A DNA stretch of 64,000 nt from Nitrospinota bacterium (GTDB lineage: Bacteria; Nitrospinota; Nitrospinia; Nitrospinales; JACRGP01): positions 1,666 to 65,665 of the forward strand of contig JACQQK010000109.1 in assembly GCA_016207065.1 (NCBI GenBank), given 5' to 3'. Made by a program: the position numbers and the translations under genes. Below the pieces are notes generated by a model. It saw nothing but the letters and a program-made list of their open reading frames with translations. It was not told the origin of the DNA and ran no database searches. Positions 4,330 through 61,180 of the stretch are shown here, in pieces. Every line of letters starts with the position of its first letter. Within the stretch, counting starts at the first letter, position 1.

Positions 4330-4612
4330 CCGGCTTGGATGGCGAATAGAGTTCGTCGAGCGCATTCCAAGTTTGGCCATTCCGCTCCAAGGCGGTCCTT
4401 GGCGCCTCCGGCGTCATGCTGACGCCGGACCCAATGCCGCCCCGTCATCGCGAGCCGCCGCGGGCGGCGTGGCGATCCAGTTTTTCTGGACGGCTTCGCT
4501 ACGCTCGCAATGACGCCCTCTCGCCATCCCGCGCGACGCTGGGTTCATTACCGCCCCGGCGCAAGCGCGGGGCGGCGTCGCCTCCGGGCGTTGGCCCGGG
4601 GATTATTTTTTT
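4330..4612. repeat. Composite of GC-rich hairpin modules (mosaic intergenic repeat locus 1)
   Basis: Module GATGGCGAAT..GGCCAT.CCGCTCC matches 10661-10710. Module GTCATCGCGAGC...GCTCGCAATGAC (4444-4513) matches 31416-31556. Module TTACCGCCCCGGCGCAAGCGCGGGGCGGC (4547-4577) recurs at 12991-13020, 25286-25315 and 61104-61133. Confidence 0.85.
4584..4612 (+). terminator. Intrinsic-terminator-like hairpin + T-run forming the last module of the mosaic repeat
   Basis: CCGGGC-GTTG-GCCCGG (6-bp GC stem, tetraloop) followed by GGATTATTTTTTT. The same module lies at 13064-13089. The T-run overlaps the stop/KK codons of the convergent gene 4603..5202. Confidence 0.35.
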
Positions 4613-5202
4613 ACCGTCCAAGTCCCGTCTTCCAGTTGGATTTTCTCGCCGGGTTTGGCGTTGTCCCGGTTCAAGCTGGCGGAGATTTTCCTCACTTTCG
4701 GCAGGTCGTTCTCCGTAAAGCTCTCGTTCGTGGCCACGATACGTTCCATCGTGGCCAGGCGGTCCTCGTTTTCCTCCTTGACGATCGTCTGGGCGAATTC
4801 CTTGAACTTCGGGTCCTTCTGGGCGCGGTCCACGTCGAAGAAGACCAGGAGCCCGTCGTTGCCCTCGCCCGCGCAACCGATCTGTTTGAACGACTGGATG
4901 TCGTCGCGGTTGAACTCCCGCCGTTGCATGGCACGGATGGCTTTCAGTTTTCCCGGCGGGATCTGCGCGACGGTTCTCAGCCGTCCCGACTCGTCCACCG
5001 AGCGGACGGAGGCCAGCAACATCATGTCGTTCCCCAACTCCTCGTAACTGCCGAGGATCTGGTTCTCCAACGCCGTCTTCTGGTCGACCACGGTCACGTT
5101 GACGTCCACCAGTTTCCCGGCGCAACCGGAAAACAGGACCGCGCTCAAACCCGCGGCCCAAAACCCCGCCGTTGGAACATTTCGTCTTTTCGTCGTATTC
5201 AT
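4603..5202 (-). CDS. Lipoprotein with YdbL-like DUF1318 domain
   Basis: Lipobox LFSGC after a signal peptide. The C-terminal ...AKPGEKIQLEDGTWTVKK and the GCAGEGNDGLL segment resemble E. coli YdbL. Confidence 0.65.
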   Translation of the reverse strand: MNTTKRRNVPTAGFWAAGLSAVLFSGCAGKLVDVNVTVVDQKTALENQILGSYEELGNDMMLLASVRSVDESGRLRTVAQIPPGKLKAIRAMQRREFNRDDIQSFKQIGCAGEGNDGLLVFFDVDRAQKDPKFKEFAQTIVKEENEDRLATMERIVATNESFTENDLPKVRKISASLNRDNAKPGEKIQLEDGTWTVKK

Positions 5203-5214
5203 GGAGGACGGCCT

Positions 5215-6465
5215 CTAGCCAAACCGTTTGAGGACGATGGCGGAGTTCTTCGAGCCGAACGAAATGCAGTTGGCGATCGCCACGTCGATGCCTTTTTCCC
5301 TTCCCTCGTTGGGAATGTAGTCCATGTCGCACTCCGGGTCCGGCTCTTCGATGTTGATGGTGGGCGTCAACACGCCCTCGCGGAGGGACAGGGCGGCGAC
5401 CGCCACGCCCAACGCGCCGGAAGCCCCTTGCGGATGGCCAACCATCGACTTGGTCGAACTCGCGGGGACCCCCATGGCATGGCCGTTAAGCGCCTCCTTG
5501 ACCGCGTGCGTTTCTATCTTGTCGTTGAGCACGGTGGACGTGCCGTGGAAATTGACGTAGTCCACGTCGTCCCCGGCGACGCGCGCGTCGCGCAGGGCCA
5601 GCTTCAGCGCGCGCGTGGACTGCCTGCCGTCGGGCATGATCGCCACCCGGTGGTACGCGTCGCACGTGGTCCCGTAACCGGCGACCTCGGCGTAGATCCT
5701 TGCGCCCCTTTTCCGCGCGTGCTCCAGTTCCTCCAGCAGGAACATCCAGGAACCCTCGGCCAGCACGAACCCTTCGCGGTCCCGGTTGAACGGCCGCGAA
5801 CCGCGCGTGGGGTCGCCGTTGAAATGGACCGGGTTGGCTTTCATGCGCTCGAACCCGTTCATCATGGCCGGGGTGATGCACGACTCCACTCCGCCCGTCA
5901 GGCACCAGTCCTCCTGGCCAAAGCGGATGCAGTTGAAGACGTAACCCAGCGCGTCGGACGAACTGGTGCAACCGTTGGCGATCACGTGGCTCCGGCCTTT
6001 CAGCCCGAAATACATGGAAATCTCGCTGGACGCCATGCCGACCAGCGAATTGGGGATGGCGTAGGGGGAGATTTTTTTCTTCTGGCCGGAGAAATGCAAC
6101 TCGAACTGTTTTTCGGAAAAATCGAACCCGCTCCCGCCGCTCCCGAGCGCCACGCCCAGGCTCTCGAAATCCTCCTCCGCGAACGATTTCAGATCGACCC
6201 CGGCGTCCTCCAATGCCTCCTGGGAGGCGGCGACGGCCAGAGGGACCGAGCGCGACATCTTTTTGAGCTCGGTTTCGGGATAATAACGCGTCGCATCGAA
6301 TCCCTGGACCTCGCCGGCGATCTGGCAGGCAAGCCCGGACGGATCGAAACTCGAGATCCTGCCGATGCCGCTGACCCCGTTACAGGTATTGTCCCAGAAC
6401 GCTTTTTTGCCAATGCCGTTCGGGCTGACGGCGCCCAAACCCGTGATCACTACCCTGCGTTGCAT
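5215..6465 (-). CDS. fabF: Beta-ketoacyl-ACP synthase II
   Basis: 416 aa starting MQRRVVITGLGAVSPNGIG. Has active-site region ANGCTSSSDA, HGTST and GHPQGASG motifs, and a KAS II length and architecture. Confidence 0.92.
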   Translation of the reverse strand: MQRRVVITGLGAVSPNGIGKKAFWDNTCNGVSGIGRISSFDPSGLACQIAGEVQGFDATRYYPETELKKMSRSVPLAVAASQEALEDAGVDLKSFAEEDFESLGVALGSGGSGFDFSEKQFELHFSGQKKKISPYAIPNSLVGMASSEISMYFGLKGRSHVIANGCTSSSDALGYVFNCIRFGQEDWCLTGGVESCITPAMMNGFERMKANPVHFNGDPTRGSRPFNRDREGFVLAEGSWMFLLEELEHARKRGARIYAEVAGYGTTCDAYHRVAIMPDGRQSTRALKLALRDARVAGDDVDYVNFHGTSTVLNDKIETHAVKEALNGHAMGVPASSTKSMVGHPQGASGALGVAVAALSLREGVLTPTINIEEPDPECDMDYIPNEGREKGIDVAIANCISFGSKNSAIVLKRFG

Positions 6466-10399: not shown

Positions 10400-10784
10400 C
10401 GCGCCCGGCAAGGATTTCCCGAGGGCCGGATTATTTGTGTCCGGGCGGGCCTTCCCCCGATAATGCCCTCGACAGGTTACGCGCCTGGCGCGCCGGCCCG
10501 GTCCCCGTCTCCGTTTGGTTTGCCCATTCAGCCTCGCTTTATCCCCAATCCCCCAAATACGCCTCCGCCCTTTCCGCAACGAGACCTTGGCATATGCCGT
10601 ATTGTAGTTGCCTGATTCATCAGGCCAGCGTGACGCTGGACTCAAATAGGCTCGGCTCCGATGGCGAATGGGAGTCATCGGGGGCAATCCGGGCCTGGCC
10701 ATCCCGCTCCGGGGCGTTCCCCGGTCAAGGGAGGGGAGTAATTTGAGGGCCGAGCCAAAGGGTTCATTTTGTTAGACGCTCTTA
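10400..10784 (-). repeat. Mosaic repeat locus 2, ending in the terminus ...GTTAGACGCTCTTA
   Basis: 10625-10784 is a near-perfect reverse complement of 60853-61011. 10594-10622 (TTGTAGTTGCCTGATTCATCAGGC) shares a module with the MITE at 56455-56577. The terminal TTA is the stop codon (TAA) of gene 10782..12851. Confidence 0.9.
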
Positions 10785-12859: not shown

Positions 12860-13090
12860 TTAGAGCGTCTAACAAAATGAACCCCTTGGCTCGACCCTCA
12901 AATTACTCCCCTCCCTTGAGGGAGGGGGCTGGGGGAGGATGACCAGCGTGAACGCTGGATCCGACGCCGCCTCAGGCTGACGCCGGATCCATTACCGCCC
13001 CGGCGCAAGCGCGGGGCGGCATTGCCCACCGGGGGCGTCCCCGGTGTCATCGCCGTAGCGCCTCCGGGCGCCGGCCCGGCTTATTTTTTA
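12860..13090 (+). repeat. Mosaic repeat locus 3, beginning with the terminus TTAGAGCGTCTAACAAAATGAAC
   Basis: The first ~58 nt match 60853-60910 and the reverse complement of 10727-10784. 12935-13055 match 61030-61170. Ends in the hairpin + T-run module (13064-13089). Confidence 0.9.
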
Positions 13091-23317: not shown

Positions 23318-24334
23318 TTATTGCCCCTTGAACGTGACACGCAGGTATTTTATGAGGTCCGCGAAATCTTGCGGGGGAAAAGTGAGTCCCCAATCCGGCA
23401 TCGAGGGAGATTTGCCCACGCTTTTCCCGCCATGGTAGACCACGTTGTAGAGGTAATCCTCGGGCATCTCGCTCAGCGGCATTTTCGCGTGGACGGCCGG
23501 TTTCGGGTCCAGTCCCGCGGCCCCCGGCCCGTCGCCTTCGCCCTTGAACCCGTGGCACTGCGCGCAATAGGTCTTGTAGACGGCCGCGCCGCGCTCGGGG
23601 TCGGCCTTCTGGAAATACTCGCTCTTCCAGGGCTCGTAATACTTGTAGCCGTCGATGCCCAGCGTCATCAGGTAGCCCACGATATAACGCGCTCCCAGCG
23701 CGCTGAGGTCCGCGAGATATTCGCCGCTGTGCGGCGTGAAATCCTGCGGGTTCGCGGCGAACCGGTACAACCAGTCCGCGGTGTAGCGTTTCCCCGCGGA
23801 GTAAAGCGTCACGCTGATCGGCCCGCCGACTTTCTTGCCGTCTTCCATGATCTGGTGGCAACCGATGCAGGAGTATTTTTTGTAGATGTCGGCGCCGAAA
23901 CCCGCTTCCATCTCCGTGAACCTGGAAAGGTCGAGGGCGTTTTTTTGCACCCTGGGATCGCGGAAGTTCTTCTCCATGTAATCCGCTACCGCCTTGGCAT
24001 CGGATGAGGACAGGGCGGGGTGCTTGGAATCTTTCTTCTTGGAATCCCAGCGGTAACCGTTGGGATAGAGAGCTTCTTCTTTTCCCTCCAACCAGCGGAG
24101 CGCCCAGTCCCGTTGATATTTGACCCCGGACCACATCATGTCCGGGGCGTCGAGGGTGAACTTGGATTTCGGCGGGCCGGAGAACCGATGACAGTTCTCG
24201 CAAGTCTCCTTGACGATTTTCGCGGCCCGGCCCTCGTCGCTTGCGGACGCAAAACCGGCGAAGGAAAGAATCGAGAGGGCGGCAACAACGGCGGCGCACA
24301 ATATTCTTTTGATCGAGATTTTCAACGTATCCAT
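23318..24334 (-). CDS. Secreted triheme c-type cytochrome
   Basis: Signal peptide plus three CxxCH motifs (CENCH, CIGCH, CAQCH). Last gene of the cytochrome operon. Confidence 0.85.
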   Translation of the reverse strand: MDTLKISIKRILCAAVVAALSILSFAGFASASDEGRAAKIVKETCENCHRFSGPPKSKFTLDAPDMMWSGVKYQRDWALRWLEGKEEALYPNGYRWDSKKKDSKHPALSSSDAKAVADYMEKNFRDPRVQKNALDLSRFTEMEAGFGADIYKKYSCIGCHQIMEDGKKVGGPISVTLYSAGKRYTADWLYRFAANPQDFTPHSGEYLADLSALGARYIVGYLMTLGIDGYKYYEPWKSEYFQKADPERGAAVYKTYCAQCHGFKGEGDGPGAAGLDPKPAVHAKMPLSEMPEDYLYNVVYHGGKSVGKSPSMPDWGLTFPPQDFADLIKYLRVTFKGQ

Positions 24335-24376
24335 GGCGTAATCCCTCCCAAAATGTTTTTCAGGCCAGACAAGCGC

Positions 24377-24826
24377 TTACTCGATATTCAACGGGGCGAA
24401 CCGGCGCAAGTATAAAATCAACCGCCAGATTTCATTGTCGCTCAACGCGGCCTTGTGGGCGGGCATGGCCGTCCCCCGGGAGCCGTTTTTGACGATCCAG
24501 AACATCTGCCCGTCCGTGACGTCTTTCATGGTTTCCCGGCAAGTAAAGTTCCTTGGCGGGGGGACGAGCTTCTCCGCCAACCGCCCATTCCCGTCCCCGC
24601 GGAGCCCGTGACAAAGTTTGCACGGGGTCGGCCGGGCTTTCTCGAGATACAACTCCTTCCCCGCCGTTACGTTCCCGGGGGTCCGTGTCAGGGGATTTTG
24701 AGCGCGGGAATACCGCTCCGGAGCCTGGGCGGTATTTCTGGGCTGTGGACATATGCCCGCCGCCTCGACGGCGGGCGAACCGCCGATGACAAGGCAAAAA
24801 GCCGCCGTTGCCGCCCGCCGTTTCAT
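24377..24826 (-). CDS. Monoheme c-type cytochrome (paralog 1)
   Basis: Signal peptide, CKLCHG, and shared C-terminal motif PPPRNFTC..MKDVTDGQMFWIVKNGSRGTAMPA...EIWRLILYLR. Confidence 0.88.
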   Translation of the reverse strand: MKRRAATAAFCLVIGGSPAVEAAGICPQPRNTAQAPERYSRAQNPLTRTPGNVTAGKELYLEKARPTPCKLCHGLRGDGNGRLAEKLVPPPRNFTCRETMKDVTDGQMFWIVKNGSRGTAMPAHKAALSDNEIWRLILYLRRFAPLNIE

Positions 24827-25416
24827 TGCGCGTTAGACAATCCCCGCAGATACAAGACCAATTCCCAGATCTCGTTGTCGTCCAGGAACTTGTAGGACGG
24901 CATGCCGGTCGCCAGGGAACCGTTCTTGATGGTCCAGAACATCTGCCCGTCGGAAACCTCCTTCATGGTCTCCGCGCAGTTGAAGTTGCGGGGTATCGCG
25001 GCGAGTCCCTGGGCCATCATGCCCATGCCGTTGCCGGAGGCGCCGTGACAGATTTTGCAGGCGGTGGGTTGCGCCTGCGCCTGGAACAGAGATTCCCCCT
25101 TCGTCAAGTTCTCCGCGGTGGGTTGCAAAGGGTTGGCCTTGTCGAGATACTCCCTGGGAGCCTGCGGGACGGTGCGCGTCTGCGGGCATAGGCCCTTGCC
25201 CCCCCGGCCCATCCCGTGATGCAACGAGTGGCGGTCGCCATGGTGCGGCCGGCCCTCGTGCATGGCCAGCGTGACGCTAGACTCATTACCGCCCCGGCGC
25301 CAGCGTGGGGCGGCGTCGCCCCCGGCGGCCAGCGCGACGGGTGGAAAGGAACCCCAGCAAAAAAATAAAAACGCCAGGCAACCGGCGGCGGCGTATGGAC
25401 ATGCTCGTTTCGTCAT
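24823..25416 (-). CDS. Monoheme c-type cytochrome (paralog 2) with His-rich linker containing an in-frame repeat element
   Basis: SD GAGGAA upstream of the ATG, signal peptide, CKICHG and the same C-terminal motif. Its stop overlaps the next gene's start (ATGA). Confidence 0.88.
   Translation of the reverse strand: MTKRACPYAAAGCLAFLFFCWGSFPPVALAAGGDAAPRWRRGGNESSVTLAMHEGRPHHGDRHSLHHGMGRGGKGLCPQTRTVPQAPREYLDKANPLQPTAENLTKGESLFQAQAQPTACKICHGASGNGMGMMAQGLAAIPRNFNCAETMKEVSDGQMFWTIKNGSLATGMPSYKFLDDNEIWELVLYLRGLSNAQ
25264..25330. repeat. Copy of the dispersed hairpin modules (CCAGCGTGACGCT.GACTC + TTACCGCCCCGGCGC.AGCG.GGGGCGGCGTCGCC) inside a CDS
   Basis: Aligns with 10625-10643, 4547-4582, 12991-13025 and 61104-61140. 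Translated in-frame as GGDAAPRWRRGGNESSVTLA within cytochrome 24823..25416. Confidence 0.85.
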
Positions 25417-25418
25417 TT

Positions 25419-26012
25419 CTATTCCTCAATGTGTCTTATATAGAGGACCAACTGCCAGATCTGGTCGTCCTCCAGGTTTTTATAGGCCGGCATGTCCGTT
25501 CCCGGAGAGCCGTTTTGAATGATCCAGAACATCTGTCCGTCGGGAATTTTTTTCATCGTCACGTAACAGGTGAAGTTCCTGGGCTGGGGCGTGGTCTGCT
25601 TGAACATGAGTCCCAGGCCATTGCCCGTCAGACCGTGGCAGATTCTGCACGGGGTCGGCCGGGTGTCGAAATGAAACAGGGTCTTGCCGGCGAGAATATT
25701 TCTTTCGCTCGGCTCCAGCGGGTTTTTCATGGTGTAATAGGGATCGGGAGCCTGCGGGGTCCGGCGCGGCTGGGGGCATAACCCGGATATTTCCGGCCCG
25801 CCCTCGTTCAAAGACGGCTCTCCCTTGTGCGCGGCAACCGGCCCGTTTTCATGGCCGGGCGGCGAACTCCTCGGCCCGTCTTGAGCGCTCGCCGGAGACT
25901 TTGCCGGCTCCGCGAAAACGGGACCGGAAAACCAGCAAACCGCCGTCGCGCAAAGGAAACCGGCGGCCATCGGTAAAAAGACGCTCCATAATCTCGAATG
26001 AACGCCGTTCAT
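25419..26012 (-). CDS. Monoheme c-type cytochrome (paralog 3)
   Basis: SD GGGAGGG, signal peptide, CRICHG, and shared motif PQPRNFTC..MKKIPDGQMFWIIQNGSPGTDMPA. Confidence 0.88.
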   Translation of the reverse strand: MNGVHSRLWSVFLPMAAGFLCATAVCWFSGPVFAEPAKSPASAQDGPRSSPPGHENGPVAAHKGEPSLNEGGPEISGLCPQPRRTPQAPDPYYTMKNPLEPSERNILAGKTLFHFDTRPTPCRICHGLTGNGLGLMFKQTTPQPRNFTCYVTMKKIPDGQMFWIIQNGSPGTDMPAYKNLEDDQIWQLVLYIRHIEE

Positions 26013-26052
26013 CGCAAACCCTCCCGCATGAAGTTGCCTGCATTAAAACCGA

Positions 26053-27051
26053 TCAGGGGAGATCGGGCAAAACGACGACGATGGGATCGCCTTCCAGCGC
26101 TTTCAGGAATTCCACCAAGTCCTTTTTCTCCGCGTCCGCCAGGCCCAGCGGGGCCATGAAAGCGCTCTTGTTTTTCGCTTCGCCCCCGCCGCGGTTGTAA
26201 AAATCGACGACCGCCTCGAGCGTCGGCTCGCTCCCGTCGTGCATGTACGGGGCGTTCCTTGTCACATGACGCAGGCCGGGAGTCTTGAAGGCCCCCCTGT
26301 CGTTCTCGTCCTTGGTCACGTTGTAGCGCCCGAGGTCCTCCTTCAACGGCCCCGCTTGTTTCACGCCCAGGTTGTGGAACTGGCTGTCGGTGAACGCCGG
26401 ACCGTTGTGGCAGATGGAGCACTTGGCCTTCCCGAAGAACAGCCCCATCCCCTTGACGGCGGAGGCGGACATGGCCTTCTTGTCGCCTTTCCAGTACTTG
26501 TCGTAGGGAGAATTTTTCGAAACCACGGCGCGTTCGTACGTGGCGATGGCCCTGGCGATGTTTTCGGAGGAGATCCCCGATTCGCCAAAAACTTTTTTGA
26601 ACATGTGGACGTAGCCGGAGACCGCTTTCAGTTCCTTGACCAGGTCGCCGAGGGGCTGGTTCATCTCGCCCGCCGCCTGGATGGGGCCGAGGGCCTGTTC
26701 CTCCAGCGTTTTGGCCCGGCCGTCCCAGAACTGCGACTCGAAATACCCGCTGTTGACGATCGTAGGCGTGTGACGTCCAAGCTCCTTCTGGCCGTTGCCC
26801 AAGGCCCTCGGCAAGCCGTCGCCGAAACCGAGGCCGGGGTTGTGGCACGTGGCGCAACTGATCCAGTTGCTCCCGGACAAGCGCGGATCGAAATAAAGGG
26901 CCTTGCCCAACTCCTCCTTGTCCTTCGACCAGGGGTTGTCCGCCGGGTGTTTCATTTCCGGGAGCGGCTGGTAAAAAGACTCTTCGGCCGGGGCCTGACC
27001 GGCAAGCAGGAATGAAACCAGGAACGCAAATAGAGTGGTCGCTATCTTCAT
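26053..27051 (-). CDS. Di-heme cytochrome c peroxidase (CCP/MauG family)
   Basis: Signal peptide, CATCHNPGLGFGDG and CSICHNGPAFTD heme motifs, ...TPGLRHVTRNAPYMHDGS..., 332 aa. Confidence 0.92.
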   Translation of the reverse strand: MKIATTLFAFLVSFLLAGQAPAEESFYQPLPEMKHPADNPWSKDKEELGKALYFDPRLSGSNWISCATCHNPGLGFGDGLPRALGNGQKELGRHTPTIVNSGYFESQFWDGRAKTLEEQALGPIQAAGEMNQPLGDLVKELKAVSGYVHMFKKVFGESGISSENIARAIATYERAVVSKNSPYDKYWKGDKKAMSASAVKGMGLFFGKAKCSICHNGPAFTDSQFHNLGVKQAGPLKEDLGRYNVTKDENDRGAFKTPGLRHVTRNAPYMHDGSEPTLEAVVDFYNRGGGEAKNKSAFMAPLGLADAEKKDLVEFLKALEGDPIVVVLPDLP

Positions 27052-27093
27052 GGGGCGCTCTCCTTCACTTGGAACGGTTGCTCGATTACCGCT

Positions 27094-28302
27094 TTAAAAA
27101 GCCAGGACAAACCCCGCTACCCCCGTATGGGTTTCTTGCGGATGGTTGAAACTTGTTTCTTGCAGGTCGCCGGTGACCTCGAACATGACTTTAAAGTTGC
27201 GCATGATGTAATAGGAGATATTGCCGGTCAACGTTTCCGCGTTCAATACCGGTCTCCCATAAACGCGCGCGTTGTTGTACAAAACCGACAGGATCCAATC
27301 CTCCTTGAACGGATAGGTCACGCCGCCCAAGGCGCCCCAGGAATCGACCCGCCGCGGGACGGAGGCGGAAAAGCCGGGATTGTCGTCCTCCCCGATCAGG
27401 AAATTGCCCCAGACTTTGAAGTCGCTGAACAGGGTGAAAGTGAAATCCGGCCCGGCGCGAAAAAATTCGTTGCGGACGTTGGCGGCGTTGTTCTCGCGCC
27501 CGCTGTAGCCGTAGAACCCGACCCGTTGTTCTCCATATCCCGCCAGAATCCTGCCGTAGAAGTCTTTAAAATTGTCCGAATCGAAGTTCCGGTCGCTGTT
27601 GGCGACGCCGATGCCGTTGCCGTTGACCGCCGCTCCCCAGATCCCCAGGGACAGGTCCGCGGCGGCGGCGAAATTATAGGATATCTCCGCGATCCGGTCG
27701 TAGGTGAGCCGGAACCCGCTGTCGCTGATCGCGGTGACGTAATAAGTGAAGTCCTGAAACGTCAGACGGTGCTCCCGGGGAAAAACGATGTCCATCAACT
27801 GGAACTGGCCCACGCGGACATCCAGGTCGGCGTTTTTGTAGATGTTGTTGAAGTACAGGAAAGCGTCCTCCACGCCGGCAATGTCCCCGTTCTCGGCGGC
27901 CAAGAAAGTAAAATAATAGGCGATGTCTTTTTTCAACGGGGCTCCGGATATGATTTTGATAAGCGACGGGGCCTCCAAATCCGTGTGCGTCCGGGTGTCG
28001 GCGCGGGCCCGGAAGAACGATTCCGCGCGCACCGCCAGGGGAAGGGACGGCAGGAGCAACAGCTTTTCGTCGCCCACCTTGGCCCCATGGGCGGCCATGT
28101 CCTCGTCGGGAAGCTGGTAGCCGTTGGCCGCGAATTGTTCTCCGAAACCGTTGAGCTTCGGGAATCCGACGTGGCATACCACGCAACTCAGGTTATATCT
28201 GCGCGCGAAAGCCGGGATCGCCTCGGCAACTTCCGTAGTTGCGGCAAACAGCAAGAGCGCTAATAAAGTCAAAACAAAAAAAGCGGTTTTACGGCTTGTC
28301 AT
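27094..28302 (-). CDS. Fused monoheme cytochrome c / outer-membrane beta-barrel porin (Cyc2/Cyt572-like architecture)
   Basis: Start at ATG 28302 (GGGAGAG upstream). Signal peptide MTSRKTAFFVLTLLALLLFAATTEVAEA. Single CVVCH 12 residues into the mature protein. About 360 aa of alternating aromatic/Gly-rich strands, and an OMP-type C-terminus GVAGFVLAF. Confidence 0.7.
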   Translation of the reverse strand: MTSRKTAFFVLTLLALLLFAATTEVAEAIPAFARRYNLSCVVCHVGFPKLNGFGEQFAANGYQLPDEDMAAHGAKVGDEKLLLLPSLPLAVRAESFFRARADTRTHTDLEAPSLIKIISGAPLKKDIAYYFTFLAAENGDIAGVEDAFLYFNNIYKNADLDVRVGQFQLMDIVFPREHRLTFQDFTYYVTAISDSGFRLTYDRIAEISYNFAAAADLSLGIWGAAVNGNGIGVANSDRNFDSDNFKDFYGRILAGYGEQRVGFYGYSGRENNAANVRNEFFRAGPDFTFTLFSDFKVWGNFLIGEDDNPGFSASVPRRVDSWGALGGVTYPFKEDWILSVLYNNARVYGRPVLNAETLTGNISYYIMRNFKVMFEVTGDLQETSFNHPQETHTGVAGFVLAF

Positions 28303-28319
28303 GTCTCTCCCTGTTCTAG

Positions 28320-28757
28320 TCATTTCCCCGCGAAGGCGCGGATAAATTGAATCGCGTTCCAGCCTTCCTCCTCGGTGATGGCCGTGCCCACCCGGACCGG
28401 CATGCCCGTCCCCGGGCTTCCGTTTCTCAGGACCCACATGAGTTCCCCATCGGTCCGTAGTTTCTGCCATTTCCCGTCGGTGAAATCCCGCGGGGCGTGT
28501 CCCGGAAAAACGGCGCCCTTGCCGTCCATGCCGTGACAGGTCACGCACAGCCCTTTCCCGAAATAGATTTTCCGGCCCTCCTCGGTCCGTTCCGGAGTCG
28601 CGGGGAAGGGGCTTTCCATTTCCTGGACTTGTTCAAGTATTTCCCTTGGGACCCGCGGCTCGTAGACGTCTTTGTGGAACGCCCACGCCTCCCCCGCGGC
28701 TAAAACAAGGGAAACCGCCAAAGCGGCCGTTAATTTTTTATCGACTCGATCAAGCAT
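28320..28757 (-). CDS. Monoheme c-type cytochrome (paralog 4)
   Basis: Start at ATG 28757 (MLDRVDKKLTAALAVSLVLAAGEAWA signal). CVTCHG and motif DGELMWVLRNGSPGTGMPV shared with the three tandem paralogs. Confidence 0.85.
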   Translation of the reverse strand: MLDRVDKKLTAALAVSLVLAAGEAWAFHKDVYEPRVPREILEQVQEMESPFPATPERTEEGRKIYFGKGLCVTCHGMDGKGAVFPGHAPRDFTDGKWQKLRTDGELMWVLRNGSPGTGMPVRVGTAITEEEGWNAIQFIRAFAGK

Positions 28758-28833
28758 GGGAACGCCAAGCGCCAGGGGACGAGGCAATTCCGCGTCCCCT
28801 GGCAAGAGCGGTTCGATCGCAACCGGCGGCCGG

Positions 28834-29436
28834 TTACTTCTTTTTCTTCTCCATCGGTTTGTCCATGGGCTTCTCCATGGGTTTGCCCTTGGCGCTTTCG
28901 GCGATCTCCTTGCCGATTTTACCATGCAGGGATTCCCAATGGCCAACGGACTGGGCGATGCCCACCGTGCCGTCGGGGATGGGCGCGTCCTTCGGCCACA
29001 AGTGAAAAATGATGCCGTCGGTATTCGACACGTGGTCCGCCAGGCTCTTTTGCTCCTTGGGGTCGGAGGGGTTCATGATGACGACGCGTCCGGTCGCGAT
29101 CTCGGCCTGGTGGTCATGCCAGTTCTGCATGTGGGACCACTTGGGGATGACCGAACGGGCGAGCTTCTTGGAGACCATGTATTCCACCTCGGTCATGCGG
29201 GCGTTGGGCTCCGTGGACTCGAACAGGATGCATTGGATGATGTCGTCGTTGATCGGTTTGCAATAATGATGGAAGGGGCCCATGATCTCGCCGTCCATGA
29301 CGTGGGGGGCGGTGACGTGGATGGTGTAACCGCTCAAGGGGTTCGGGGGGACGTCGCCGGCAAAGGCGGGAGCTACCAGGAAACCAACCAGGAGCAGAGC
29401 GGACATGAACAGCCGGGCAATCTGTTTCGCGAGCAT
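28834..29436 (-). CDS. Secreted DUF1264-family protein with Met/Lys-rich C-terminal repeats
   Basis: SD AGGAGA and a signal peptide. ...GPFHHYCKPINDDIIQCILFESTEPNARMTEVEYMVS...WHDHQ... matches my memory of the DUF1264 (OBAP-like) core. The tail is KGKPMEKPMDKPMEKKKK. Confidence 0.65.
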   Translation of the reverse strand: MLAKQIARLFMSALLLVGFLVAPAFAGDVPPNPLSGYTIHVTAPHVMDGEIMGPFHHYCKPINDDIIQCILFESTEPNARMTEVEYMVSKKLARSVIPKWSHMQNWHDHQAEIATGRVVIMNPSDPKEQKSLADHVSNTDGIIFHLWPKDAPIPDGTVGIAQSVGHWESLHGKIGKEIAESAKGKPMEKPMDKPMEKKKK

Positions 29437-29598
29437 AACGTTTCTCCTCTGGGAAAAGGGATTTTTAACTTGTGGATCGCTGGCAACAACAATTGTCCCA
29501 GGACATTTTCCTTTTCAAAACATTTTCGCCGCGACGCTTTTCATGCCGTGAAAGCGCCGGGCCCGGATTCACGCCAAAAACTCGGAAGAATACTATAT

Positions 29599-29714
29599 GG
29601 GCATCTCTAAAAATTGCTTTTTCTCGAATCCAACCGTTCCTGAAAAAGTTGTAGTTGCCCAATTTATTGGGCTTTTGGAGCGCCTGATGAATCTACAATT
29701 TTTAGAGATGCTCC
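29599..29714 (+). mobile_element. MITE-like element, copy 1 (terminal inverted repeats GGGCATCTCTAAAAA / TTTTTAGAGATGCTCC)
   Basis: 116 bp flanked on both sides by CTATAT (candidate target-site duplication). The reverse complement of 56455-56577 aligns along the whole length. Confidence 0.8.
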
Positions 29715-29846
29715 TATATGATAAAGGGTATCGGGGAGGTTACAACAACTTTTTTTTCGCGAAAAAAACGGGGACCGCCGATCGCGGATTCCAAAGGCGG
29801 TTTTCCCGGACGAGGGAATGCGGGCGCGGGTCTTTTATGGAAACGT

Positions 29847-30389
29847 TCAGGAGCCGGGCCCGCGCACCAGGCGGAGGAACGCGTCTTTTCCCGAAATCTT
29901 GTCTTGATACGTCTGTTCGCCGTCGTCCTTGAAAGAAACTACGATGGCCTTGTCCCCTTTTTCAGCCTGGGTCCAGGTGGCCCACCCGGCCCCTTTCGGG
30001 AAAATAGGGTCGATGAAAATTTTGTCGCCGTCCTTGTCCACGTTCACTCTCTGCCGTTCGTAAAGGCTTTTGGCCTCGTCCGGGGTGGGCAGACGCCAGT
30101 CGGAGTGTCCCGCGAACTTTTTATTGTTCATCCTCTGGGCAAATTCGACGGCGGTATACCAGCTCGCCCATTTGTTCTCCGTCTGCCAGTAATCGTTCTT
30201 CATCCACATCAGTTTGGTTTTGCTGTCCAGGATCGTCCCGTCGCCAAAATCCAAAAATCTCCGGTCGGAGGATTGGGCGACCGGTTTTTTGCTCTTCGCG
30301 GCTTTTGCCGAAACCGGGATTGTTCCTGAAAAGAACGCGAGGCACAAGGCAAGGGCGGCGGTCATGGCAATCCCGGAACGTAGTCTCAT
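29847..30389 (-). CDS. Secreted DUF1566 (Lcl C-terminal domain) protein
   Basis: SD AGGAGG and a signal peptide. ...LMWMKNDYW...WYTAVEFAQRMNNKKFAGHSDWRLPTPDEAKSLY... is typical of DUF1566. Confidence 0.75.
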   Translation of the reverse strand: MRLRSGIAMTAALALCLAFFSGTIPVSAKAAKSKKPVAQSSDRRFLDFGDGTILDSKTKLMWMKNDYWQTENKWASWYTAVEFAQRMNNKKFAGHSDWRLPTPDEAKSLYERQRVNVDKDGDKIFIDPIFPKGAGWATWTQAEKGDKAIVVSFKDDGEQTYQDKISGKDAFLRLVRGPGS

Positions 30390-30542
30390 CTAAAACCTCC
30401 TGCGAAGGGTAAAAGACTTTCGAAGAACGCGTCTGGATTTTTCGAATTTTACAGCGCCTTGATTTTCAAGTAAACGGGATTCCGGCTTGACTGGCCTCCG
30501 CGTTGGGATAAAATATCAGATGACCCTATCGAGGAGTCCTCC

Positions 30543-31190
30543 ATGACGCCCGCCGTTGTTCCGCGGACCTGGTTTCGTCCCGCCGTTTTCGCGTTCGTTT
30601 TCGCCTGTCTTTTGGCGGGCGCCGCTTGGGCGGCGCCCAAGGACAAGGAGCGCTGGGATTCCAAGTACAACCTGGACGTTTATCTTTTCGGCAAGGAGCC
30701 AACGCCCTTCCTGAAACAGAATGCCGGCCTGCTTCCCAAGGGAAAAGCCCTGGACATCGCGATGGGCGAGGGGCGCAACGGAGTCTTCCTTGCCACGCAA
30801 GGTTTTGAAGCGCTCGGGCTGGACATCTCCGAGGTCGGACTGCGCAAGGCCCATGAACTCGCCAGGGAAAAGAACGTCAAGATCGAGACCCGCGTCGTCG
30901 ATCTGGAGAGCGTCAAATTGGAAAAGAACGCCTACGACGTGGTCCTGTGCATGTACTACCTGCAAAGAGACCTGTTCCCCCAGATCAAGGACGCGTTGAG
31001 GAGCGGCGGAATGGCGGTGGTCGAGACCTACAACCCGGACTATCGCAAATACAACCCCAAGTTCCCCAGGCAATACCTCCTTGAAACCAACGAACTGCTG
31101 GAAATCTTCAAGGACTTCAAGATCGTCCGGTATCAAGCCTACGACGACGGCAAGGAAGCCTACTCCAGCATCATCGCGCAGAAACCCTGA
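30543..31190 (+). CDS. Class I SAM-dependent methyltransferase (TehB-like) with an apparent N-terminal signal-like segment
   Basis: KALDIAMGEGRNGVFLATQGFEALGLDIS (motif I). The first ~30 aa are hydrophobic (FAFVFACLLAGAAWAAP). The start is uncertain, with an in-frame TTG inside that segment. Confidence 0.75.
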   Translation: MTPAVVPRTWFRPAVFAFVFACLLAGAAWAAPKDKERWDSKYNLDVYLFGKEPTPFLKQNAGLLPKGKALDIAMGEGRNGVFLATQGFEALGLDISEVGLRKAHELAREKNVKIETRVVDLESVKLEKNAYDVVLCMYYLQRDLFPQIKDALRSGGMAVVETYNPDYRKYNPKFPRQYLLETNELLEIFKDFKIVRYQAYDDGKEAYSSIIAQKP

Positions 31191-31415: not shown

Positions 31416-31556
31416 GTCATCGCGAGCCGCCCACTCGCCGCGGATAATTCCGCCTCGGCGCAAGCGCGAGGCGGCGTTGCCCCCCGGGGGCTTCCCCGGC
31501 GGCGTGGCGATCCAGCATGCTAGACTGCTTCGTCGGCATAGCCTCCTCGCAATGAC
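31416..31556. repeat. Hairpin-module repeat (GTCATCGCGAGC ... CTCGCAATGAC with internal CGCCTCGGCGCAAGCGCGAGGCG hairpin)
   Basis: A longer relative of 4444-4513. Contains the ATG at 31552 that the ORF track uses for the downstream transporter. Confidence 0.8.
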
Positions 31557-60852: not shown

Positions 60853-61180
60853 TAAGAGCGTCTAACAAAATGAACCCTTTGGCTCGACCCTCAAATTACT
60901 CCCCTCCCTTGACCGGGGAACGCCCCGGAGCGGGAGGGCCAAGCCCGGATTGCCCACGATGACTTCCATTCGCCATCGGAGCCGAGCCTATGGAGTCCAG
61001 CGTCACGCTGGGGAGGGGGCGGGGGGAGGGTGACCCGCGTGAACGCTGGACCCGATACCGCCTCAGGCTGACGCCAAGGGCGGCCGGCGTGACGCCGGAT
61101 TCGTTATCGCCCCGGCGCAAGCGCGGGGCGGCATTGCCCACCGGGGGCGTCCCCGGCGTCATCGCCGCGTTGCCGCGACT
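60853..61180 (+). repeat. Mosaic repeat locus (largest copy), starting TAAGAGCGTCTAACAAAATGAAC
   Basis: 60853-61011 is the reverse complement of 10625-10784. 61030-61170 matches 12935-13055. Contains the CGCCCCGGCGCAAGCGCGGGGCG hairpin. Confidence 0.9.

What the first reader, a model, noticed from the sequence alone, without database searches (positions are those of the whole stretch)
25264..25330. An otherwise intergenic repeat element sits in-frame inside a cytochrome c gene
Seen: the segment GGCCAGCGTGACGCTAGACTCATTACCGCCCCGGCGCCAGCGTGGGGCGGCGTCGCCCCCGGCGG aligns with repeat modules found in intergenic mosaics at 4530-4582, 10625-10643, 12985-13025 and 61100-61140. Here it lies between the signal peptide and the heme domain of 24823..25416 and is read through as GGDAAPRWRRGGNESSVTLA without a stop. 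The gene start is well supported by a GAGGAA SD, a signal peptide and tight coupling to the upstream gene, so the repeat really is coding. The same repeat translated elsewhere gives the spurious peptides GDAAPRLRRGGNEPSV (track ORF 4499..5332) and NAAPRLRRGDNESGV (60896..61162). Inference: a repeat insertion tolerated in a disordered linker, meaning repeat-driven protein-sequence innovation.
Basis: seen in the sequence. Interest (0 to 1): 0.62.

Follow-up and report, generated by a model that had tools for sequence, protein, structure and literature searches.

The report
Hairpin repeats translated inside cytochrome gene
A short GC-rich palindromic repeat that otherwise sits between genes in an uncultured groundwater Nitrospinota bacterium lies in frame in the floppy spacer between the export signal and the heme domain of a periplasmic cytochrome c. 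Tolerated repeats inside genes are already known from other bacteria, but here closely related strains carry different repeat modules at the same spot.

Summary
Window 25264-25326/30 is a collinear copy of a dispersed mosaic of GC-rich hairpin modules: module A is CCAGCG-TGA-CGCTGG and hairpin 2 is CCGCCCCGGCGCAAGCGCGGGGCGG. The other in-window copies are all intergenic.

The block lies inside the 197-aa cytochrome c ORF 24823..25416(-) and reads AGGDAAPRWRRGGNESSVT(LA). The public gene call starts at M52, just after the block. Orthologue conservation of "LA" before that Met, signal peptides in all orthologues, a GAGGAA Shine-Dalgarno site, and indels of 3, 3 and 12 nt in relatives all support the upstream start.

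Contigs from three samples span both junctions without a difference. A ~92% relative from another study carries the block.

New findings:
- Co-occurring and related strains carry at least three different module arrangements behind module A at this site.
- A distant orthologue clade has module A at the same codons.
- The block is bounded by a 12/13 direct repeat exactly 21 codons apart.
- Residues 1-80 are predicted to be disordered.

In-frame REP, RPE or MITE insertions in linkers are a known phenomenon, so this is a new member of a known kind. No new function is shown. Interest is about 0.4.

The parts
24823..25416 (-). Monoheme c-type cytochrome gene, 197 aa. It is the middle of three tandem, translationally coupled paralogues.
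   Evidence: ORF. PF13442 (38.7 bits) and PF00034 (34.6 bits) are above their cut-offs on residues 103-193, and CKICH is present. There are 180 homologues, almost all Nitrospinota.
25327..25416 (-). Signal-peptide coding part (residues 1-30, MTKR + hydrophobic core + VALA).
   Evidence: Read directly from the translation. Orthologues all carry N-terminal signal peptides of similar length. A ~92% relative differs here by two 3-nt deletions, so the frame is kept.
25264..25326 (-). Repeat-derived block, 63 nt = 21 codons, translated AGGDAAPRWRRGGNESSVTLA.
   Evidence: Collinear matches to the intergenic copies. Logan contigs with 0 differences span 25242-25478/25600 in three samples.
25266..25280 (.). 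Hairpin module A (CCAGCG-TGA-CGCTaG), with one stem position broken (25279 A).
   Evidence: Relatives in runs X5 to X8 have G at 25279, which restores the perfect palindrome.
25289..25313 (.). Hairpin-2 core (CCGCCCCGGCGCcAGCGtGGGGCGG), 2 changes from the family consensus.
   Evidence: five copies in the window. Copy 31450 carries a compensatory double change in the stem (CCGCCTCG..CGAGGCGG).
25264..25276 (.). Left copy of the direct repeat GGCCAGCGTGACG (codons V-T-L-A).
   Evidence: 12/13 identical to 25327-25339, 63 nt apart. Such a pair arose in about 3% of dinucleotide shuffles of the region.
25327..25339 (.). Right copy of the direct repeat GGCCAGCGCGACG (codons V-A-L-A, the end of the signal peptide).
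25261..25263 (-). ATG of Met52, the start used by the public gene call (146-aa product P0001).
   Evidence: P0001 is 146 aa, 100% identical, and covers 74% of the query. There is no purine-rich Shine-Dalgarno site upstream.
25422..25427 (-). Shine-Dalgarno GAGGAA for the upstream ATG (25414-25416).
   Evidence: Sequence.
25419..26012 (-). Upstream paralogous cytochrome c (197 aa). Its own long linker shows no repeat match.
24377..24826 (-). Downstream paralogous cytochrome c (149 aa), with a 4-nt start/stop overlap.
4520..4590 (.). Intergenic copy (degenerate module A + hairpin 2 + CGTCGCC).
   Evidence: It lies downstream of the DUF1318 gene 4603..5202(-).
12965..13032 (.). Intergenic copy between divergent genes.
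61082..61148 (.). Intergenic copy collinear with the whole block (A variant CCGGCG-TGA-CGCCGG + hairpin 2 + hairpin 3).
31433..31500 (.). Intergenic hairpin-2 variant with compensatory stem changes.
10623..10654 (.). Intergenic copy of module A followed by a different module (CTCAAATAGGCTCGGCTCC...).
   Evidence: The same arrangement is seen in the linker of orthologue L081 and in the alternative allele in runs X1 to X3.

Best explanation
Window 25264-25326 is a copy of this lineage's dispersed mosaic of GC-rich hairpin modules, which resembles REP/BIME elements. It consists of module A, a TCATTA spacer, hairpin 2, and a stump of a third hairpin.

It sits inside the translated 5' part of a Sec-exported monoheme cytochrome c. 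Its position is exactly between the signal-peptidase site (VALA|A) and the conserved mature N-terminus (LAMHxGRPH...GxCPQ).

The real start is the ATG at 25414-25416, not the Met52 used by the public gene call. The block is therefore translated as about 20 residues of a disordered N-terminal spacer and is carried as a tolerated, probably neutral passenger.

It most likely got there, and keeps being remodelled, by ectopic recombination or template switching with other copies of the mosaic. Two sequences would anchor this: module A, whose end GGCCAG coincides with the conserved Leu-Ala codons, and the A-like sequence GGCCAGCGCGACG that encodes the end of the signal peptide. This would explain why related strains carry different modules behind the same module A while the frame stays intact.

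Shown: repeat identity, collinearity, contiguity, orthologue conservation upstream of Met52, frame-preserving indels, and allelic module variants.

Inferred: translation and export from M1, neutrality, and the recombination mechanism.
For: Repeat identity:
- blastn E values from 1.7e-12 to 1e-4 against five other copies, collinear over about 60 nt.
- Hairpin-2 copy 31450 shows a compensatory stem change.

Coding status and start:
- All orthologues (185-192 aa) have a signal peptide plus a spacer plus a conserved 'LAMH'. The DNA CTGGCCATGCA(C/T) is conserved, so translation must begin upstream of Met52.
- The upstream ATG has a GAGGAA Shine-Dalgarno site and stop-start coupling. Met52 has none.
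- A c-type cytochrome domain needs export, and only the M1 form has a signal peptide.
- Indels in relatives within 25264-25416 are 3, 3 and 12 nt. The only 1-nt indel falls in the 2-nt gap between the genes.
- 19 of 33 listed substitutions against the ~92% relative are at third codon positions.

Contiguity:
- Contigs with 0 differences cover 25015-25265 and 25242-25478/25600 in three samples.
- The contig of the ~92% relative in run X5 runs 24823-25312 without a gap.

Insertion versus ancestry:
- The 79 Nitrospinota loci hold no hairpin 2 at up to 3 mismatches, and the orthologous linkers among them that could be read show no block.
- It is also absent from the JGI metagenome contigs.

Tolerance:
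- AlphaFold2 gives pLDDT 46-55 and no secondary structure for residues 1-80.
- Allelic forms exist. X8 has a 12-nt tandem duplication. X4 and X7 have an extra hairpin (CCAACG-TGC-CGTTGG) and hairpin 2 on the opposite strand. X1 to X3 hold a second out-path from the same gene node: module A followed by GGATGCAACTGGCTCGGCTCCGATGGCGAA.

Anchors:
- A 12/13 direct repeat lies at both block ends, 63 nt apart.
Against: - No RNA or protein data exist. No RNA run holds the locus, so translation from M1 is inferred.
- The public gene caller chose Met52.
- No close relative with a clean empty site was found. The nearest orthologues outside the species complex are at most 71% identical, so 'insertion' rests on distant comparison and on lineage restriction of hairpin 2.
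- Module A at the same codons in the distant P0004/5/9 clade means that part of the block may be ancestral rather than inserted. The AU test does not reject a common origin (p = 0.21).
- In Logan's graph the left boundary is a two-in, two-out node of 30-36 nt (25236-25271). The phase between left-flank variant and linker form is therefore not verified by contigs.
- The direct repeat is only modestly significant (about 3% of shuffles).
- The mRNA fold of the block is no more stable than shuffles (z = -0.46). This neither supports nor opposes the passenger reading.
Confidence: 0.8

Rival explanations
1. The gene really starts at Met52 (ATG 25261-25263), as in the public call. The block would then be an ordinary extragenic repeat in the spacer between two cytochrome genes, and the upstream 51 codons would be a chance open frame.
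For: - The collection's own product P0001 is 146 aa and starts at Met52.
- Di Nocera et al. warn that many 'N-terminal intragenic' REPs are misannotations (PMC3733652).
- Two of three frames of the repeat are open by composition.
Against: - 'LA' and the codons CTGGCC before the Met are conserved in orthologues.
- Every orthologue has a signal peptide. The Met52 product has none, although it carries a CxxCH heme domain.
- A Shine-Dalgarno site and stop-start coupling occur only at the upstream ATG.
- Indels in relatives preserve the frame, whereas the single 1-nt indel lies in the true intergenic gap.
Confidence: 0.06
2. The block is not merely tolerated but selected. The linker would be a cassette-like variable region. 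Exchange of repeat modules would generate N-terminal variants of a periplasmic cytochrome, or the hairpins in the polycistronic mRNA would tune expression of the three paralogues.
For: - At least three module arrangements occur at the same site among strains 89-95% identical in the flanks, some co-occurring in one sample.
- The arrangements whose full or partial sequence could be read stay in frame.
- Module A is kept at this site in a distant orthologue clade.
Against: - The fold energy is not different from shuffles.
- There is no Rfam family.
- The linker is poorly conserved and disordered in the whole family.
- Variation is equally expected from neutral recombination among dispersed repeats.
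- The block peptide was found in no other protein.
Confidence: 0.1
3. Assembly artefact: the window is chimeric at the repeat. An intergenic repeat copy, or another strain's segment, was spliced into the gene by the assembler.
For: - Logan contigs break at 25265/25242 and overlap by only 24 nt.
- The graph has a two-in, two-out node at 25236-25271.
- The repeat depth is 40 to 100 times the flank depth.
Against: - The contig that carries the whole block extends 22-24 nt into unique conserved coding sequence on the left and more than 150 nt on the right, with 0 differences, in three samples.
- The other out-path also leads into repeat modules behind module A.
- A ~92% relative from a different study has one contig running from the heme domain through 25312.
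- Depths of the window's path are coherent: about 40, 42 (X1); 36, 25-27 (X2); 19, 23, 18 (X3).
Confidence: 0.03
4. The similarity is convergent or runs the other way: the linker is the source of the repeat, or both are just GC-rich sequence that looks alike.
For: The region is GC-rich, and ALA/VTLA codons resemble half of module A.
Against: - There are about 60 nt of collinear similarity to several copies, with E down to 1e-12.
- The gene copy is the derived one. It differs from the consensus at three positions where the other copies agree: 25279, the loop A>C, and the stem C>T.
- The family is very abundant in the source metagenomes.
Confidence: 0.01

Closest known systems
Intragenic REPs (GTAG- and CGTC-tagged palindromic repeats; Di Nocera, De Gregorio & Rocco 2013, PMC3733652)
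   Same: - Short GC-rich stem-loop repeats that are mostly extragenic.
- A minority lie wholly inside ORFs, usually as dimers or groups encoding 20-30 aa.
- They are thought to be neutral because they sit in flexible linkers, loops or termini.
   Different: - There is no GTAG tag.
- CGTC follows hairpin 2 in only 2 of 5 copies.
- The stems start with C/G rather than the A/T pairs of the CGTC families, and there is no CCA tail.
- Here the modules form multi-module mosaics, and the intragenic copy is structurally polymorphic between close strains.
Rickettsia palindromic elements (RPE; Ogata et al. 2000, as cited in PMC3184786 and PMC3733652)
   Same: Palindromic selfish repeats inserted in frame in protein-coding genes. 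They are translated and compatible with function.
   Different: - RPE-1 elements are described in PMC3733652 as longer palindromic insertions.
- They occur in a reduced intracellular genome.
- Here the block is a 63-nt composite of 15-25-nt GC-rich hairpins in a free-living groundwater Nitrospinota, placed between signal peptide and mature domain.
- No sequence relationship was tested or is expected.
BIMEs of Escherichia coli (mosaics of REP and other motifs; from my own knowledge of Gilson et al. 1991)
   Same: Dispersed mosaics in which a few short palindromic modules are combined in different orders and orientations.
   Different: BIMEs are extragenic. No sequence similarity is expected.
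Bacterial MITEs fused to ORFs (reviewed by Delihas 2011, PMC3184786; QMITE1 of Coxiella, PMC5896051)
   Same: Non-autonomous repeats whose open frames become fused to or inserted in chromosomal ORFs. Direct repeats flank some of them.
   Different: - The block has no terminal inverted repeats spanning the element.
- The flanking direct repeat is 13 nt and coincides with coding motifs.
- It is much shorter than typical MITEs (100-400 bp).

Membership tests
REP/BIME-type dispersed palindromic repeats (generic) | Short (about 15-40 nt) GC-rich imperfect palindromes able to form stem-loops. | tested here: met
   Module A has a 6-bp stem and 3-nt loop. Hairpin 2 has a 7+3-bp stem. One copy carries a compensatory stem change.
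REP/BIME-type dispersed palindromic repeats (generic) | Many copies, predominantly extragenic. | tested here: met
   There are five hairpin-2 and about six module-A copies in 64 kb, all but this one between Pfam-checked genes. Summed contig depth over 25289-25319 is 40 to 100 times that of the flanks in the source metagenomes. A whole-genome count was not possible.
REP/BIME-type dispersed palindromic repeats (generic) | Modules combined in variable order and orientation (mosaics). | tested here: met
   Module A is followed by hairpin 2 at 4528, 12970, 25266 and 61084, but by CTCAAATAGGCTCGG at 10625 and 60997.
REP/BIME-type dispersed palindromic repeats (generic) | Associated RAYT (IS200/IS605-like tyrosine transposase) in the genome. 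| not testable with these tools
GTAG-tagged REP superfamily | Unpaired GTAG motif at one end of the stem. | tested here: not met
   The flanks of hairpin 2 are TCATTA / CGTCGCC or CATTGCC. The flanks of module A are GG / ACTCA. No GTAG is present. Definition from PMC3733652.
CGTC-tagged REP superfamily | Terminal CGTC (or TGTC/CCTC) tag. | tested here: inconclusive
   CGTC directly follows hairpin 2 in 2 of 5 copies (4576, 25314). The others have CATT or CGTT.
CGTC-tagged REP superfamily | 8-9 bp stem with A/T pairs at the first and second positions, a 4-5 nt loop and a CCA tail. | tested here: not met
   The stem starts CC...GG and there is no CCA tail. Definition.
MITE | Terminal inverted repeats bracketing the element. 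| tested here: not met
   The block contains only internal hairpins. Its two ends (GGCCAGCGTG... / ...CCCCGGCGGCC) are not inverted copies of each other.
MITE | Target-site duplication (direct repeat) flanking the element. | tested here: inconclusive
   A 12/13 direct repeat GGCCAGCG(T/C)GACG lies 63 nt apart (about 3% of shuffles). It is part of module A and of the signal-peptide codons, so it may be a recombination anchor rather than a target-site duplication.
Class I c-type cytochrome (PF13442 / PF00034) | Pfam domain above the gathering score, with a CxxCH heme-binding motif. | tested here: met
   38.7 bits against a cut-off of 27, and 34.6 bits against 21.3. CKICH is at residues 120-124 and is invariant in alignment A1.
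Class I c-type cytochrome (PF13442 / PF00034) | N-terminal Sec signal peptide for periplasmic heme attachment. | tested here: met
   MTKR, a 20-residue hydrophobic core and VALA are seen directly, and this part aligns with the orthologues' signal peptides. No dedicated signal-peptide predictor was available.

The most novel reading that the evidence does not exclude
The spacer between signal peptide and mature domain of this Nitrospinota cytochrome c family would be a recombination landing pad for the phylum's hairpin repeats.

Module A is a 22-nt element, GGCCAGCGTGACGCTGGACTCA, conserved letter for letter across Nitrospinota orders. It would dock on the conserved CTGGCC (Leu-Ala) codons. It would then serve as a hub behind which other modules are swapped by ectopic conversion.

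The result would be in-frame, strain-specific N-terminal variants of a periplasmic redox protein within a single aquifer community. The same docking would have happened independently in at least two orthologue lineages.
Probability: 0.2. Interest if true: 0.6.

Novelty: new member of a known kind. Interest (0 to 1): 0.4.

Why it matters
1. Annotation. The public gene call truncates this cytochrome at Met52 and removes its signal peptide. Repeat-rich MAGs are likely to hold more such errors.
2. Breadth of the phenomenon. It extends tolerated intragenic palindromic repeats, known from Rickettsia, Opitutus, Pseudomonas and others, to Nitrospinota. No repeat family has been described for this phylum in the searched literature.
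3. Turnover inside a gene. Co-occurring strains carry different module arrangements at one coding site. This gives a natural system for asking how dispersed hairpin repeats move and recombine, and how much sequence a signal-peptide-proximal linker can absorb.

The finding does not by itself show any new protein function.

Tried and rejected
- **Own contig and gene calls.** Looking them up through P0001 failed: not on record.
- **Clean empty site in a close relative.** None was found.
  - The collection holds nothing above 71% identity apart from the window's own product.
  - The genome-contig scan gave at most 66%.
  - A 54-nt in-frame skip (25258>25313) in run X4 looked like an empty site. 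I rejected it because it has a 22-nt side, a different depth (28.5 vs 13.3), and flanks unlike the gene.
- **Wider distribution of hairpin 2.**
  - The first metagenome scan gave 0 hits.
  - The second gave one hit, L083, which is a generic terminator-like AAAAACGCCCCGG..GGGGCGTTT in another organism.
- **Independent gain of module A.** The tree separates the focal protein from P0004/5/9, but the AU test does not reject their union (p = 0.21). I therefore do not claim independence.
- **RNA structure or RNA family.** There is no Rfam hit in the window, and the fold z-score is -0.46.
- **The block's peptide in other proteins.** None was found.
- **Expression data.** No RNA run is served.
- **Tat motif.** The RR in PRWRRGG lies after the hydrophobic core, not before it, so it is not a twin-arginine signal.
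- **Lipobox.** None was recognisable around Cys13 or Cys20.
Full report
**What is there**

The window has 57% G+C. It comes from an uncultured Nitrospinota lineage. The homologues of the gene in question are almost all from Nitrospina, Nitrospinaceae or Nitrospinota records, and the sequence is held at 96-97% of sampled words by three groundwater metagenomes of one study.

On the minus strand a di-heme cytochrome c peroxidase gene (26053..27051) is followed by three tandem monoheme c-type cytochromes:
- 25419..26012 (197 aa)
- 24823..25416 (197 aa, the gene in question)
- 24377..24826 (149 aa)

A larger multi-heme protein follows. The three cytochrome genes are translationally coupled. The TAG of the first lies 2 nt before the ATG of the second, with GAGGAA inside the end of the first gene. 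The second and third overlap by 4 nt.

The stretch 25264-25330 matches five other places in the window:
- 4545-4587: 40/43, E 1.7e-12
- 12990-13020: 29/31
- 61082-61132: 43/51, collinear over the whole block
- 10623-10644: 21/22
- 31450-31484: a weaker copy

The block is built of recognisable modules:
- Module A is GG-CCAGCG-TGA-CGCTGG-ACTCA. In the gene the stem is broken by A at 25279.
- A TCATTA spacer follows.
- Hairpin 2 is CCGCCCCG-GCGCAAGC-GCGGGGCGG. The gene copy has two changes.
- CGTCGCC comes next.
- A stump (CCCCGGCGGC) of a third hairpin is complete in the copies at 31476 and 61138.

The copy at 31450 has a compensatory double change in the hairpin-2 stem.

All other copies lie between genes whose reality I checked with Pfam. 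Translation in the gene's frame gives AGGDAAPRWRRGGNESSVTLA. The open frame as such is unremarkable, because two of three frames on each strand of the canonical repeat lack stops.

**Is the block really coding?**

This was the main risk. The public collection's own product for this gene (P0001) is 146 aa, so it starts at Met52, the codon directly after the block. Five lines of evidence say that call is wrong.

1. In an alignment with 21 orthologues (185-234 aa), all have an N-terminal signal peptide, a short variable spacer, and then a conserved LAMHxGRPHGGRHERHxxHHGMGRGGxGxCPQ segment. The Leu-Ala before the Met is conserved, down to the DNA CTGGCCATGCA(C/T).
2. Only the upstream ATG has a Shine-Dalgarno site and stop-start coupling.
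3. The Met52 product would be a CxxCH cytochrome without an export signal.
4. In a ~92% relative (runs X5 and X8, another study) the putative signal-peptide region differs by two 3-nt deletions, and the block by a 12-nt duplication. The only 1-nt indel falls in the 2-nt gap between the genes.
5. Of the 33 listed substitutions against that relative, 19 are at third codon positions.

**Is it an assembly artefact?**

In each of three samples, Logan contigs with zero differences cover 25015-25265 and 25242-25478/25600. The second contig carries the whole block plus 22-24 nt of unique conserved coding sequence on its left. In run X5 a single 513-nt contig of the ~92% relative runs from the stop codon through 25312 without a gap.

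There is one caveat. The left boundary (25236-25271) is a two-in, two-out node of the assembly graph, so contigs alone cannot phase which flank variant goes with which linker form. Both out-paths lead into repeat modules, so the central claim does not depend on that phase.

**Insertion, and of what?**

Hairpin 2 is lineage-specific. It is absent, at up to 3 mismatches, from 1.1 Mb around orthologues in 79 Nitrospinota genome loci. It is also absent from the JGI metagenome contigs; the single hit there is an unrelated terminator-like hairpin. In the source metagenomes the summed contig depth over it is 40 to 100 times that of the flanks.

No orthologue outside the species complex has hairpin 2. 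However, those orthologues are no more than 71% identical to the focal protein, and they carry their own 9-15 aa spacer. The net excess is only about 7 residues, and a clean empty site cannot be shown.

The block is bounded by a 12/13 direct repeat, GGCCAGCG(T/C)GACG, at 25264-25276 and 25327-25339. The two copies are exactly 63 nt (21 codons) apart and encode VTLA and VALA (about 3% of shuffles). Removing one repeat and the interval would give FPPVALA|MHEGRP, an architecture without a spacer that one homologue (P0119) shows. I read this as a footprint of microhomology-anchored recombination. That is an inference.

*1. The site is structurally polymorphic.* There are four forms besides the window's:
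- Runs X5 to X8 have G at 25279, which restores a perfect module A.
- X8 has a tandem duplication of CCAGCGTGACGC.
- X4 (about 95% in the flanks) and X7 (another study) continue after 25277 with a different hairpin (CCAACG-TGC-CGTTGG) and then hairpin 2 on the opposite strand.
- X1 to X3 hold a second contig that starts in the unique coding sequence at 25242, passes module A, and continues GGATGCAACTGGCTCGGCTCCGATGGCGAA. This is the module that follows A in the intergenic copies at 10625 and 60997.

The parts of these alleles that can be read stay in frame. For the X4/X7 form the reading is partly reconstructed.

*2. Module A is not lineage-specific.* The orthologues P0004, P0005 and P0009 come from other organisms (53-56% G+C). 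They read ...SSVTLAMH, with DNA GGTCCAGCGTCACGCTGGCCATGCAC, which is a perfect module A at the same codons. L081 shares 30 of 32 nt with the window's intergenic copy at 10623-10654.

A maximum-likelihood tree of the mature domain places the focal protein in a different clade (95/83 support) from these three. The AU test, however, does not reject putting them together (p = 0.21). Independent gain and shared ancestry therefore both remain open.

Module A also occurs letter for letter at the 3' ends of unrelated genes in other Nitrospinota MAGs (L016, L023, L048, L006). In the first three it is read through to the stop. About 0.1 such matches are expected by chance in that 1.1 Mb.

**Structure and function**

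AlphaFold2 with the 24-sequence alignment gives pLDDT 46-55 and no secondary structure for residues 1-80. The helical cytochrome fold starts near residue 88. The block therefore lies in a region that is probably disordered.

Nothing points to a function of the block. There is no Rfam family in the window. The RNA fold is no better than shuffles (z = -0.46). No other protein shares the peptide. No RNA run is available.

**Comparison with what is known**

In-frame REPs, RPEs and MITEs inside genes are documented.
- Di Nocera et al. (PMC3733652) list intragenic GTAG and CGTC REPs. More than half are dimers or groups encoding 20-30 aa. They are argued to be neutral in flexible linkers, with an explicit warning about N-terminal misannotation.
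- Delihas (PMC3184786) reviews internal and terminal ORF fusions, including the Rickettsia palindromic elements of Ogata et al. 2000.

The present family fails the GTAG test. It also fails the stem and tail criteria of the CGTC families, so it is a different family working in the same way. No paper in the searched library connects Nitrospinota with REP elements.

**Verdict**

It overreaches on 'innovation' and on a simple 66-nt insertion.
- Novelty: a new member of a known kind.
- The modest extra interest lies in three things: the allelic module turnover inside a coding linker, the phylum-wide module A at the same codons in distant orthologues, and the corrected start codon.

This prevented a whole-genome census and a search for a mobilising transposase.

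Noticed in passing
L016 9760-9783; L023 1011-1033; L048 13535-13552; L006 4305-4327; L037 7118-7132: The 22-nt module GGCCAGCGTGACGCTGGACTCA is conserved letter for letter in marine Nitrospinales MAGs. In L016, L023 and L048 it sits at the very 3' end of unrelated genes and is read through to the stop (...GQRDAGLIE*, ...GQRDAGLNLQ*, ...GQRDAGS*). That gives 6-7 loci in 1.1 Mb against about 0.1 expected by chance. What keeps it identical across orders is unexplained.
   Followed up: partly
window 25140-25263 (-), residues 52-92; alignment A1: The family has a conserved His/Arg/Gly-rich segment, LAMHxGRPHGGRHERHxxHHGMGRGGxGxCPQxRxxPQAP, between the spacer and the heme domain, with an invariant Cys. 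AlphaFold2 confidence there is low. It could be a metal-binding or partner-docking tail.
   Followed up: no
window 25261-25263 (-): The public gene call for this cytochrome starts at Met52 (146 aa), which strips the signal peptide. This is probably a start-codon misannotation caused by the repeat.
   Followed up: yes
window 31450-31474: This hairpin-2 copy has a compensatory double substitution (CCGCCTCG...CGAGGCGG against CCGCCCCG...CGGGGCGG). The stem is therefore maintained in at least some intergenic copies.
   Followed up: partly
L081 580-860 (protein P0009): The linker of this orthologue contains an internal duplication (MRPTIDASCLKHEPI ... MPPTLPGRYLKDEPI), which makes the protein 234 aa. 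Linkers of this family are length-plastic in several lineages.
   Followed up: no
L082 1-4134 compared with window 23318-31190: There is partial synteny: a TehB-like methyltransferase, a small cytochrome c, a di-heme cytochrome c peroxidase, and the orthologous cytochrome c. The window has two extra tandem cytochrome c paralogues after the peroxidase.
   Followed up: no
window 25015-25265 in runs X1 to X3: A second variant, about 89% identical over the heme domain, co-occurs with the window's sequence in the same three samples (depths about 30 against about 50). Several related strains or species therefore share this aquifer.
   Followed up: partly
L083 2381-2403: This is the only JGI metagenome match to the hairpin-2 core. 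It is AAAAACGCCCCGGCGCAAGCGCGGGGCGTTT, a generic terminator-like stem-loop with a GCAA loop in an unrelated contig, and not a family member.
   Followed up: yes
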